Below, piece by piece: positions 9,689-9,750 of a stretch of 59,241 bases of DNA. Numbering within the stretch: the stretch's first letter is position 1; every line of letters begins with the position of its first letter. Position numbers and translations under genes: made by a program. This DNA is from a virus (taxonomy: Duplodnaviria; Heunggongvirae; Uroviricota; Caudoviricetes): the IMG/VR virus record IMGVR_UViG_3300006149_000003. One strand, given 5' to 3'. The notes under the pieces are model-generated. The model was not told the DNA's origin. It worked only from the letters and a program-made list of their open reading frames with translations, and did no database searches.

Positions 9689-9750
9689 GGAGCACTAACA
9701 GCAACTTTTTTTTGGAATCAACTTTTAATTGACAACCCAAAATGTGCTCC
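9689..9750 (+). ncRNA. Small stem-ACAGCAA RNA candidate, copy C, with a Lys(UUU) anticodon-like stem-loop
   Basis: GGAGCAC/GTGCTCC stem, TAACAGCAA, TTTTGG/CCAAAA stem, then TCAA-CTTTTAA-TTGA. Confidence 0.55.

What the first reader, a model, noticed from the sequence alone, without database searches (positions are those of the whole stretch)
9710..9742. Free-standing tRNA-Lys(UUU) anticodon stem-loop: possible anticodon-nuclease decoy
Seen: copy C presents TCAA-CTTTTAA-TTGA; the 7 nt loop is identical to that of the full tRNA-Lys at 12366, but there is no D-arm, T-arm or CCA. Copy A has a weaker TTTT-TTAAGGT-AAAA (Leu AAG-like loop). Copy B has no convincing loop. Known: PrrC, RloC and PARIS AriB cut the tRNA-Lys(UUU) anticodon loop. 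Inference: a non-chargeable decoy that titrates anti-phage tRNases, a possible RNA-based counter-defence.
Basis: partly seen in the sequence, partly recalled or inferred. Interest (0 to 1): 0.8.

Follow-up and report, generated by a model that had tools for sequence, protein, structure and literature searches.

The report
Anticodon-arm mimic on Ro-like handle RNA
The "free-standing tRNA-Lys anticodon hairpin" is real, but it is the tip of a 64-base phage RNA from an apparently undescribed family that joins a constant docking handle (a helix plus ACAGCAA), probably for a phage Ro60-like protein, to pieces of tRNA; a role as a decoy for tRNA-cutting defence enzymes is possible but untested.

Summary
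The hairpin UCAA-CUUUUAA-UUGA (9718-9732) exists, and its loop equals that of tRNA-Lys at 12397-12403. It is not free-standing. It caps a 64-nt element (9688-9751) with a 7-8 bp closing helix and an invariant ACAGCAA box, wedged between two tRNA-Leu genes.

About 90 distinct relatives occupy tRNA slots in about 100 related mouse-gut and other phage contigs. The closing helix covaries (99.6% paired, 7 of 8 pairs compensatory).

Orthologues of this copy keep a 7-nt loop with U33, U36, A37 and A38 invariant. The loops read Lys UUU, Asn GUU or Thr UGU, and the stem shows compensatory changes in two lineages. In one relative the same scaffold encloses whole tRNA bodies. Anticodon-arm mimicry is therefore supported.

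The handle matters more. All five related complete genomes encode a DUF2828 protein whose predicted fold matches Ro60, preceded by box-bearing RNAs. I reproduced this pairing in five unrelated sequenced phages and in a blind genome search.

Best reading: a Y-RNA-like partner RNA with a tRNA-Lys-type payload. A decoy function is neither shown nor excluded.

This scan found the same family before on other phage DNA. I found no publication or Rfam entry for it.

The parts
9688..9751 (+). Element C: the complete handle-plus-payload small RNA (64 nt with the flanking U.G pair)
   Evidence: Covariance model R1 scores it 63.5 bits, E 3e-12. MFE fold. 19 or more distinct orthologues.
9689..9695 (+). 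P1 5' strand (GGAGCAC), acceptor-stem-like closing helix
   Evidence: Pairs with 9744-9750. Across the family 99.6% of cells are paired and 7 of 8 pairs show compensatory changes. Within the C type, 5 of 8 pairs do.
9698..9704 (+). Invariant ACAGCAA box (the handle), unpaired, 2 nt after P1
   Evidence: Exact in 201 of 233 elements; the rest differ by one base. The same box lies beside Ro-like genes in unrelated phages.
9710..9715 (+). Inner helix P2 5' strand (UUUUGG); the conserved GGA may be a remnant of the D-loop GG
   Evidence: MFE fold. GG/CC pairs are kept in 17-18 of 19 sequences. The UUUUCUUGG segment is shared with the D-arm of L096 X1.
9718..9732 (+). The finding: anticodon-arm mimic, UCAA-CUUUUAA-UUGA (loop 9722-9728)
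9737..9742 (+). P2 3' strand (CCAAAA)
9744..9750 (+). P1 3' strand (GTGCTCC); followed by G, with no CCA
8759..8815 (+). Element A, a paralogue directly after the tmRNA; the payload is a GG-loop hairpin
   Evidence: R1 55.7 bits. Orthologues.
8816..8904 (+). Element B, a paralogue abutting A; its interior includes an anti-Shine-Dalgarno-like CCACCUCC at 8880-8887
   Evidence: R1 39.4 bits..
9603..9686 (+). tRNA-Leu(tag). Its CCA ends 1 nt before element C, so processing of its 3' end would free the 5' end of C
9762..9847 (+). tRNA-Leu(caa), 10 nt after element C. RNase P cleavage here would free the 3' end of C. It is the downstream neighbour in nearly all orthologues
12366..12441 (+). Full-length phage tRNA-Lys(ttt), whose anticodon loop (12397-12403) the mimic copies; the stems differ

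Best explanation
Element C (9688-9751) is a small phage RNA built on the Y-RNA plan. It is transcribed with the tRNA/tmRNA/ROOL island. It is probably released when the two flanking tRNA-Leu genes are processed.

It has two modules.
1. A constant handle: a 7-8 bp closing helix followed by unpaired ACAGCAA. This is most likely the docking site for the Ro60-like (DUF2828 plus vWA) ring protein that all sequenced relatives of this phage encode.
2. A variable payload derived from tRNA. Here it is reduced to a tRNA-Lys(UUU)-type anticodon arm.

The particle would work by tRNA mimicry. It would present an anticodon arm that cannot be charged to some factor that reads anticodon loops, either to tether that factor to the Ro-like protein or to occupy it.

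Shown: the structure, covariation, family membership, tRNA derivation, presence in RNA libraries, and the genomic coupling of the handle to the Ro-like gene.

Inferred: release as a discrete RNA, binding to the protein, and the identity of the factor engaged by the payload.
For: - P1 covaries strongly: 99.6% paired, 7 of 8 pairs compensatory.
- The box is nearly invariant in 233 elements.
- Elements sit 1-15 nt from flanking tRNAs at syntenic slots.
- The C-type hairpin keeps U33, U36, A37 and A38. The stem swaps AUCAA/UUGAU to AAUUG/CAAUU (L086) and to AUAGA/UCUAU (L096).
- tRNA origin: L096 X2 encloses a tRNA-Ile-like body scoring 43.9 bits. X1 encloses D, anticodon (Cys) and T arms. X1 shares UUUUCUUGG with the C type.
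- ARAGORN in armless mode of 89 elements, against 0 of 89 for fully shuffled sequences and 0-3 of 89 when only the interior is shuffled.
- Loops identical to real anticodon loops: 18 against 0.53 expected.
- Protein partner: DUF2828 is found in 5 of 5 related genomes. R1 hits lie upstream on the same strand in 4 of 5.
- In L139, five box-bearing RNAs precede the gene, three of them tRNA-shaped (43-52 bits).
- Predicted fold: the 13 best PDB matches are all Ro60/TROVE.
- The same RNA-gene adjacency occurs in Staphylococcus, Mycobacterium, Listeria, Salmonella and Campylobacter phages.
- In a blind search, the only 2 of 150 genomes with R1 hits are the two of the three genomes checked that carry the gene; the nearest genome (G001) has neither.
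- Metatranscriptome contigs covering 8040-9802 have depth 66-175, against 0-14 for downstream genes.
Against: - No Ro-like gene lies in the 59-kb window. In relatives it is about 41 kb from the tRNA island, so adjacency does not hold for this copy.
- No binding data exist, and the tools could not model RNA-protein binding.
- Known Ro60-binding motifs (GNCGAAN0-1G / CGAA) differ from ACAGCAA. The Rfam YrlA model does not match.
- Bas63 gp130 counters Ppl when expressed alone, so the protein may not need these RNAs.
- The loop-closing pair is A.C in 11 of 19 orthologues, which gives a 9-nt loop.
- Many family members have no anticodon-like payload.
- Contigs cannot show RNA ends, so release as a discrete RNA is not shown.
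Confidence: 0.55

Rival explanations
1. The RNA acts on its own as a competitive decoy that titrates an anticodon-directed defence nuclease (PrrC, RloC, PARIS AriB or an unknown Firmicute equivalent) and so protects tRNA-Lys.
For: - The loop is identical to tRNA-Lys. Variant orthologues read Asn GUU and Thr UGU.
- Those three are the reported target set of E. coli AriB, which shares U36-A-A-U39.
- The window-clade hairpin has UAAU, and L096 has UAAUC.
- The RNA cannot be charged, and it sits in an RNA island that metatranscriptome contigs cover more deeply than the neighbouring genes.
- Phage tRNA arrays are an established counter to tRNA nucleases.
Against: - The coincidence is modest. Two variants falling in {GUU, UGU} among 6 single-step neighbours has a chance of about 0.1, by my estimate.
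- AriB needs D-loop U16/U17 and stem positions 39-41, which are absent or different here.
- The stems copy neither the host tRNA nor the phage tRNA.
- In the TerL-69% clade position 39 is C.
- The family-wide invariant is the handle, not the anticodon arm.
Confidence: 0.17
2. It is a base-pairing or sponge-type small RNA, like the tRNA-spacer-derived 3'ETS-leuZ in E. coli. The conserved loop and flanks would be a seed for an mRNA or sRNA target, and the likeness to an anticodon loop would be incidental.
For: - The hairpin is conserved mainly at the sequence level (GGAAUCAACUUUUAA).
- Its stems are AU-rich and weak.
- Sibling elements carry CU-rich anti-SD-like tracts that could pair with ribosome-binding sites.
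Against: - No complementary partner was found in the co-transcribed island.
- Stem covariation with an unchanged loop, the 7-nt loop enrichment and the exact identity to anticodon loops fit mimicry better.
- tRNA bodies inside the same scaffold are not explained by this model.
Confidence: 0.1
3. It is a decaying tRNA pseudogene, or a spacer hairpin that only helps fold or process the polycistronic tRNA precursor, with no function of its own.
For: - It lies in a tRNA slot and has tRNA-derived features.
- Some arrays lack the C element altogether, for example L023.
Against: - Compensatory changes keep P1 and the hairpin paired across TerL identities of 66-100%.
- The box is invariant across paralogues and across unrelated phages.
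- The linkers diverge while the loop does not.
- Most tRNA pairs in these arrays need no spacer hairpin.
Confidence: 0.06

Closest known systems
Bacterial and phage Y RNAs of the YrlA type with Ro60/Rsr (Chen et al. 2014, PMC4201824; Rfam RF02553)
   Same: - A small RNA whose 5' and 3' ends pair next to a conserved unpaired motif.
- A second module that mimics tRNA.
- Encoded in genomes that carry a Ro60-fold ring protein, often beside tRNA genes.
- Sibling RNAs in this clade (L139 229-340, 556-670, 672-795) have the YrlA topology: a tRNA-like acceptor, D and T arms with the handle at the anticodon-arm position.
   Different: - The motif is ACAGCAA, not GNCGAAN0-1G.
- The Rfam YrlA model does not reach its threshold (25 bits or less against 69, and those hits fall on true tRNAs).
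- The protein is the DUF2828 branch. The Pfam TROVE model finds nothing in 5 genomes.
- In element C the topology is inverted, with the handle outside and the payload inside, and the payload is only an anticodon arm.
Thermus phage phiLo Ro60 with Yrl1/Yrl2 (PMC12135203; PDB 9KOP, 9L5Y)
   Same: - It is the best structural match of this clade's DUF2828 protein (E 2e-8, TM 0.53-0.58).
- Phage-encoded partner RNAs lie upstream of the gene.
- A proposed anti-defence role through hijacking of host PNPase.
   Different: - The partner RNAs there use a CGAA motif and have no described tRNA payload.
- Sequence identity to the protein is only 17%.
Bas63 (Felixounavirus) gp130, a counter of the Ppl defence (PhageMaP preprint 10.1101/2024.10.10.617714)
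   Same: - A Ro60-like phage protein directly upstream of a tRNA array. The authors guessed that some of the 'tRNAs' are Y RNAs.
- Felixounaviruses are among the 711 phage records that hold my protein's family.
- SP116 of that genus has ACAGCAA elements inside the adjacent tRNA array.
   Different: - I did not compare the gp130 sequence itself.
- The protein alone sufficed against Ppl.
- No RNA partner was defined in that work.
Phage-encoded full-length tRNAs that bypass tRNA-cleaving defences (T5 tRNA-Lys, Thr and Asn against PARIS AriB; PMC11464382, PMC12409363)
   Same: The same anticodon identities (Lys UUU, Thr UGU, Asn GUU) and the same genomic setting in a phage tRNA array.
   Different: Those are functional, chargeable tRNAs that replace cleaved host tRNAs. 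Element C has no D arm, T arm or CCA and cannot decode.
Dictyostelium Class I RNAs (Rfam RF01414)
   Same: An identical outline: a terminal stem, then an adjacent ..UACAGCAA motif, then a variable region, 45-65 nt in all.
   Different: Scores are 21-31 bits against a gathering score of 41.5. The hit is not consistent across members (none). This is a eukaryotic lineage, so I treat it as a resemblance only.

Membership tests
Canonical tRNA (Rfam RF00005) | Cloverleaf with D arm and T arm, recognised by the tRNA covariance model or ARAGORN | tested here: not met
   No Rfam tRNA match at E<=1 and no standard ARAGORN call at 9687-9761. Only ARAGORN's permissive armless mode calls it Lys(ttt).
Canonical tRNA (Rfam RF00005) | 7-nt anticodon loop with U33 and a purine at 37 on a 5-bp stem | tested here: met
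   CUUUUAA on a 4-5 bp stem. U33, U36, A37 and A38 are invariant in 19-21 orthologues. The closing pair is A.C in 11 of 19.
Canonical tRNA (Rfam RF00005) | 3' CCA, which is encoded in every tRNA of this array | tested here: not met
   GTGCTCC is followed by GTAGG.
Y RNA / YrlA (RF02553) | Score at or above the family's gathering threshold | tested here: not met
   The best YrlA hits score 23-26 bits against 69 and lie on true tRNAs, not on the elements.
Y RNA / YrlA (RF02553) | GNCGAAN0-1G / CGAA Ro-binding motif near the terminal stem | tested here: not met
   The motif here is ACAGCAA.
Y RNA / YrlA (RF02553) | A Ro60 orthologue encoded in the same genome, typically nearby | tested here: inconclusive
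   The window's own genome is not held and the window has no such gene. 5 of 5 related genomes have a Ro60-fold DUF2828 gene about 41 kb from the island, with sibling RNAs next to it.
Y RNA / YrlA (RF02553) | Physical binding to Ro60 | not testable with these tools
   No RNA-protein modelling or binding data were available.
ACAGCAA-handle RNAs (undescribed; this scan's working family, model R1) | 7-9 bp helix with covariation, followed within 0-3 nt by unpaired ACAGCAA | tested here: met
   R1 63.5 bits. Covariation.
ACAGCAA-handle RNAs (undescribed; this scan's working family, model R1) | Location in a phage tRNA array and/or beside a DUF2828 Ro-like gene, on the same strand | tested here: met
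   In the window it lies in a tRNA slot. Members lie beside the gene in relatives and in 5 unrelated phages.
RNA decoy of an anticodon nuclease (functional class; compare pseudo-ToxI mimicry) | Copies the determinants that the nuclease reads | tested here: inconclusive
   The loop is copied exactly. The stems differ from host and phage tRNA-Lys. The D-loop contacts that AriB needs are absent.
RNA decoy of an anticodon nuclease (functional class; compare pseudo-ToxI mimicry) | A cognate nuclease present in the host range | tested here: inconclusive
   DUF4435 (AriB) occurs in 1 of 40 relatives of the nearest genome. AAA_13 (PrrC/RloC) is over the cut-off in 2 of 40. Neither is in the nearest genome. 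The true host is not established.
Dictyostelium Class I RNA (RF01414) | Gathering score of 41.5 bits | tested here: not met
   30.9 bits (copy A), 21.4 bits (L059 C), no hit in L057.

The most novel reading that the evidence does not exclude
Phages of many lineages make a Ro60-like ribonucleoprotein whose RNA subunits are interchangeable cartridges. Each has one constant ACAGCAA handle plus a chosen piece of tRNA. In element C and its orthologues the cartridge displays the anticodon arms of exactly the tRNAs that a Toprim anticodon-arm nuclease (AriB) is known to cut: Lys UUU, Asn GUU and Thr UGU. The particle would then be an RNA-guided trap or decoy for tRNA-targeting immune nucleases. That would be the first RNA-based counter-defence against tRNases, and it would give Y-RNA tRNA mimicry a function.
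Probability: 0.2. Interest if true: 0.9.

Novelty: new variant of a known kind. Interest (0 to 1): 0.7.

Why it matters
Ro60/Y-RNA particles are known, and YrlA-type Y RNAs are known to mimic tRNA, but why they do so is an open question.

This family uses a different and very simple handle. It carries anything from a bare anticodon arm to a whole tRNA body. It accompanies a protein family present in 711 sequenced phage records, including well-studied Listeria, Staphylococcus, Salmonella, Campylobacter and mycobacterial phages. One member of a Ro60-like phage protein family has already been shown to counter a defence system.

That makes the question directly testable in tractable phages: what does the tRNA-like payload engage, and is it a defence nuclease? 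It also flags a recurrent RNA gene class that genome annotation misses or mislabels as tRNA-OTHER or as tRNAs with introns.

Tried and rejected
- **Sequenced phage relatives.** Megablast of the island against 50,697 phage records gave only tRNA fragments.
- **Own genome.** It is not held. The nearest genome, G001, matches only through tRNAs.
- **Pfam TROVE.** Nothing in 5 related genomes; the DUF2828 model was needed. Pfam, PHROGs and PDB sequence searches of window proteins found no Ro-like, RNA-repair or tRNA-modifying gene in the window. PDB sequence and profile searches with the DUF2828 protein found nothing; only the fold search did.
- **Host nucleases.** AriB (DUF4435) and PrrC/RloC (AAA_13) were sought in 40 relatives of the nearest genome and are rare: 1 of 40 and 2 of 40 over the cut-off, and none in the nearest genome. 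The host is not established and such systems are sporadic, so I count this neither for nor against.
- **Box complement.** UUGCUGU and the loop complement do not occur in the RNA island.
- **Dictyostelium Class I RNA.** Below threshold.
- **More distant TerL clade** (63-64% identity, L116-L131) and L105-L107: small or no tRNA sets and no elements.
- **RNA ends.** Laying metatranscriptome runs returned contigs only, so ends, strand and processing could not be read.
- **Literature.** Searches for ACAGCAA, for tRNA-like anti-defence RNAs and for phage tRNA-array RNAs found no description of this family.
- **Rejected readings.**
  - MITE or DNA-level inverted repeat, because G.U pairs, strand bias and syntenic conservation point to RNA.
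  - Transcription terminator, because there is no U tract after P1.
  - Pro-anticodon mimicry for the UUUGGGU loops, which I hold as uncertain because similar GG-loops recur in unrelated phages and may be D-loop-like.

Full report
**Setting.** The window is part of a large phage known from mouse and rat gut metagenomes. The large terminase lies at 13500-15308. The window also holds a reverse transcriptase, integrases and an endolysin.

Positions 7391-12441 form an island of RNA genes on one strand:
- a ROOL RNA (348 bits);
- a tmRNA;
- 19 tRNAs, each with an encoded CCA.

The finding lies in the 75-nt spacer between tRNA-Leu(tag) 9603-9686 and tRNA-Leu(caa) 9762-9847.

**Observation.** The hairpin is there: UCAA 9718-9721, loop CUUUUAA 9722-9728, UUGA 9729-9732. 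The loop equals the anticodon loop of the phage's tRNA-Lys at 12397-12403.

It is not free-standing. It caps a 64-nt element, 9688-9751, made of:
- a closing helix GGAGCAC/GTGCTCC;
- an unpaired UA-ACAGCAA;
- a U-rich linker;
- an inner helix UUUUGG/CCAAAA;
- the hairpin itself.

Two paralogues, A (8759-8815) and B (8816-8904), follow the tmRNA. My covariance model finds exactly these three in the window.

**The family.** Flanking-protein searches fetched about 100 related viral contigs. A script found 221-233 elements of this architecture next to tRNAs, about 90 of them distinct.
- A phage array carries up to 5-7 elements.
- They sit 1-15 nt from the neighbouring tRNAs, at syntenic slots.
- A and B lie between tRNA-Pro (or the tmRNA) and tRNA-Asn.
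- C lies just upstream of tRNA-Leu(caa) in nearly all orthologues.

Across 31 diverse members the closing helix is paired in 99.6% of cells, and 7 of 8 pairs show changes on both sides. The box is exact in 201 of 233 elements and one base off in the rest. This is a selected RNA structure. It is not a DNA repeat and not chance.

**Is the hairpin an anticodon arm?** I examined 19 distinct C-type orthologues, plus L096 and a copy in a metagenome-assembled genome.
- The loop is CUUUUAA in most.
- It is CUGUUAA in L057 and L042.
- It is AUUUUAA in L044.
- It is UUUGUAA in L104 and L086.

Positions 33, 36, 37 and 38 never change. Only positions 32, 34 and 35 vary. The three loop types are letter for letter the anticodon loops of this phage's own tRNA-Lys, tRNA-Asn and tRNA-Thr(UGU).

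The stem changes with compensation in two lineages: AAUUG/CAAUU in L086 and AUAGA/UCUAU in L096. The flanking linkers diverge freely.

There is a weakness. In 11 of 19 sequences the loop-closing pair is A.C.

Family-wide counts:
- 7-nt loops: 39 against 8.1+-2.2 in shuffles.
- Loops identical to a real anticodon loop of these arrays: 18 against 0.53+-0.79.

A caveat applies. The "Pro" loops (UUUGGGU and relatives) recur as GG-loops in unrelated phages and may be D-loop-like rather than anticodon-like.

**tRNA origin.** The most divergent array, L096, holds two elements in which the same helix-plus-box scaffold encloses tRNA bodies.
- X2 (5248-5360) contains a tRNA-Ile(GAU)-like D arm, anticodon arm and T arm. 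It scores 43.9 bits on the Rfam tRNA model, and its own acceptor strands cannot pair.
- X1 (5144-5224) keeps a D arm, a Cys GCA anticodon arm and a T arm (22 bits).

X1 and the C-type element of the same phage share the UUUUCUUGG segment after the box. In X1 that segment is the D arm. The conserved GGA before the hairpin in element C is therefore probably a D-loop remnant, and the hairpin stands where the anticodon arm stands.

ARAGORN's armless mode of 89 elements, with element C called as Lys(ttt). The controls gave 0 of 89 for fully shuffled sequences and 0-3 of 89 when only the interior was shuffled. This mode is permissive and also calls the mirror strand.

**Expression.** Six metatranscriptome runs from four studies hold the stretch. 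I laid four of them, one per study. In three, contigs over ROOL have depth 2494-4879, and contigs over 8040-9802 have depth 66-175. Downstream structural genes have depth 0-14. Contigs cannot show RNA ends, so release of a discrete small RNA is inferred from the tRNA-slot position only.

**The handle and its likely partner.** After forming the above view I consulted earlier notes of this scan. They report the same helix-plus-ACAGCAA RNAs in many other phages, next to a Ro60-like protein. I treated this as a lead and tested it.
- Pfam TROVE finds nothing in five related genomes that are 88-100% complete.
- DUF2828 is present in all five, as ORFs of 506-541 aa.
- My model R1 was built only from tRNA-array elements. 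It hits upstream of that gene, on the same strand, in four of the five.
- In L139 the 940 nt before the gene hold five box-bearing RNAs. Two are stand-alone hairpins. Three are tRNA-shaped genes (43-52 bits) whose anticodon loop is replaced by a 48-55-nt insert carrying a hairpin plus ACAGCAA.
- The protein matches DUF7788, DUF2828 and, weakly, vWA. It falls in PHROG 850, "RNA-binding protein".
- Its predicted structure has pLDDT 74. Its 13 best PDB matches are all Ro60/TROVE proteins, aligned over the full length (E 2e-8 to 7e-4, TM 0.41-0.58).
- The protein family occurs in 711 sequenced phage records, some annotated "Ro-like RNA binding protein".
- In five of six unrelated phages that I fetched, two or three stem-plus-ACAGCAA elements lie directly beside the gene on the same strand. 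These are Staphylococcus 6ec, Mycobacterium Appletree2, Listeria List-36, Salmonella SP116 and Campylobacter F374. Vibrio CZ01 has none.
- An unplanned blind control: of 150 genomes of the nearest host family, only two had R1 hits. I checked three of those genomes for the gene. The two with hits carry it, and the hits lie 160-440 nt upstream. The nearest genome, G001, has neither.

**Mechanism.** The best-supported reading is a Y-RNA-like RNA with a constant docking handle for the Ro60-like ring and a tRNA-derived payload. Element C shows the payload in its most reduced form, an anticodon arm of tRNA-Lys type.

What the payload engages is unknown. By analogy with Ro60/Y RNA/PNPase particles, it could tether the protein to a factor that reads anticodon loops, or it could occupy such a factor.

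It gains some support from a coincidence. The three loop variants are the reported target set of PARIS AriB: Lys UUU, Thr UGU and Asn GUU, which share U36AAU39. The coincidence is statistically modest. AriB also needs D-loop and stem contacts that are absent here. The stems copy neither host nor phage tRNAs.

A Ro60-like phage protein, Bas63 gp130, does counter a defence system, Ppl. It did so when expressed alone.

**Comparison and novelty.** The closest known system is Ro60/Rsr with YrlA-type Y RNAs. The closest phage examples are phiLo Ro60 with Yrl1/Yrl2 and Bas63 gp130. Element C fails the membership tests for YrlA on motif and on model score, and it fails the tests for tRNA. It works like a Y RNA but is not a member of the described family.

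I found no description of the ACAGCAA handle in Rfam 15 or in the papers I could search. The scan itself has met this family repeatedly on other phage DNA.

**Verdict.**
- Observation confirmed.
- Interpretation partly supported: mimicry yes; decoy untested and not the leading model as stated.
- Class: a new variant of a known kind.
- Interest: 0.7.

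Noticed in passing
window 7400-7990 (ROOL RNA): In one metatranscriptome run (X16), a 621-nt contig of depth 3420 is a circular permutation of ROOL, with a joint from 7990 to 7400. This suggests a circular or head-to-tail RNA form. It is seen in one run only and could be an assembly or ligation artefact. ROOL depth is 2494-4879 in three runs, against 2-170 for neighbouring genes.
   Followed up: no
window 8880-8887 (element B); L094 5737-5821, L058 928-1032, L086 6124-6213: Several family members carry CU-rich tracts that resemble the 16S rRNA anti-Shine-Dalgarno end (CCACCUCC, CUACCUCCCUUUCU) in place of an anticodon-like hairpin. 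This is a second kind of payload that looks like part of the translation apparatus.
   Followed up: no
L096 5144-5224 and 5248-5360; also about 3757-3925: The helix-plus-ACAGCAA scaffold encloses whole tRNA bodies that cannot be charged (Cys GCA-like and Ile GAU-like). This array lacks normal tRNA-Cys and tRNA-Ile. A third, roughly 165-nt scaffold before tRNA-Asn contains a T-loop-like UUCGAUUCC.
   Followed up: partly
L139 229-340, 556-670, 672-795 (G168, upstream of the Ro-like gene): Three tRNA-shaped genes have intact acceptor, D and T arms but a 48-55-nt handle-bearing insert in place of the anticodon loop. Standard ARAGORN misses them. In Salmonella phage SP116 an annotated 'tRNA-OTHER' pseudogene lies in the same kind of array.
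   Followed up: partly
window 10415-10556: Inverted repeat 10415-10430 / 10541-10556. It has no ACAGCAA box, and R1 does not hit it.
   Followed up: no
window 48353-49747: A reverse transcriptase (PHROG 1423, 1.5e-68) lies downstream of a 674-aa protein with a Hoc-like or Ig-like C-terminus (45270-47294). This may be a diversity-generating retroelement acting on a tail or decoration protein.
   Followed up: no
RNA island, window against L104/L011 and G002: The RNA island is highly mosaic. A phage with 91% identical TerL (L104) has only tRNA-Trp plus B- and C-type elements. The otherwise 100% identical fragment G002 stops matching upstream of window 10418.
   Followed up: no
window 9681-9693 against 11135-11147: There is a 13-nt perfect complementarity between the tRNA-Leu(tag) 3' end plus the start of element C and the D-arm region of tRNA-Thr(cgt). 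About 0.2 such matches are expected by chance in 5 kb, so it is probably chance.
   Followed up: no
A-type payloads: window 8783-8799; L145 4879-4935; L059 2639-2694: A U-stem / GG-loop / A-stem hairpin (CUUUU-UGCGGAU-AAAAG) is nearly identical between a Salmonella Felixounavirus element and the A-type elements of this gut phage clade. It looks like a second conserved payload module of unknown meaning.
   Followed up: no
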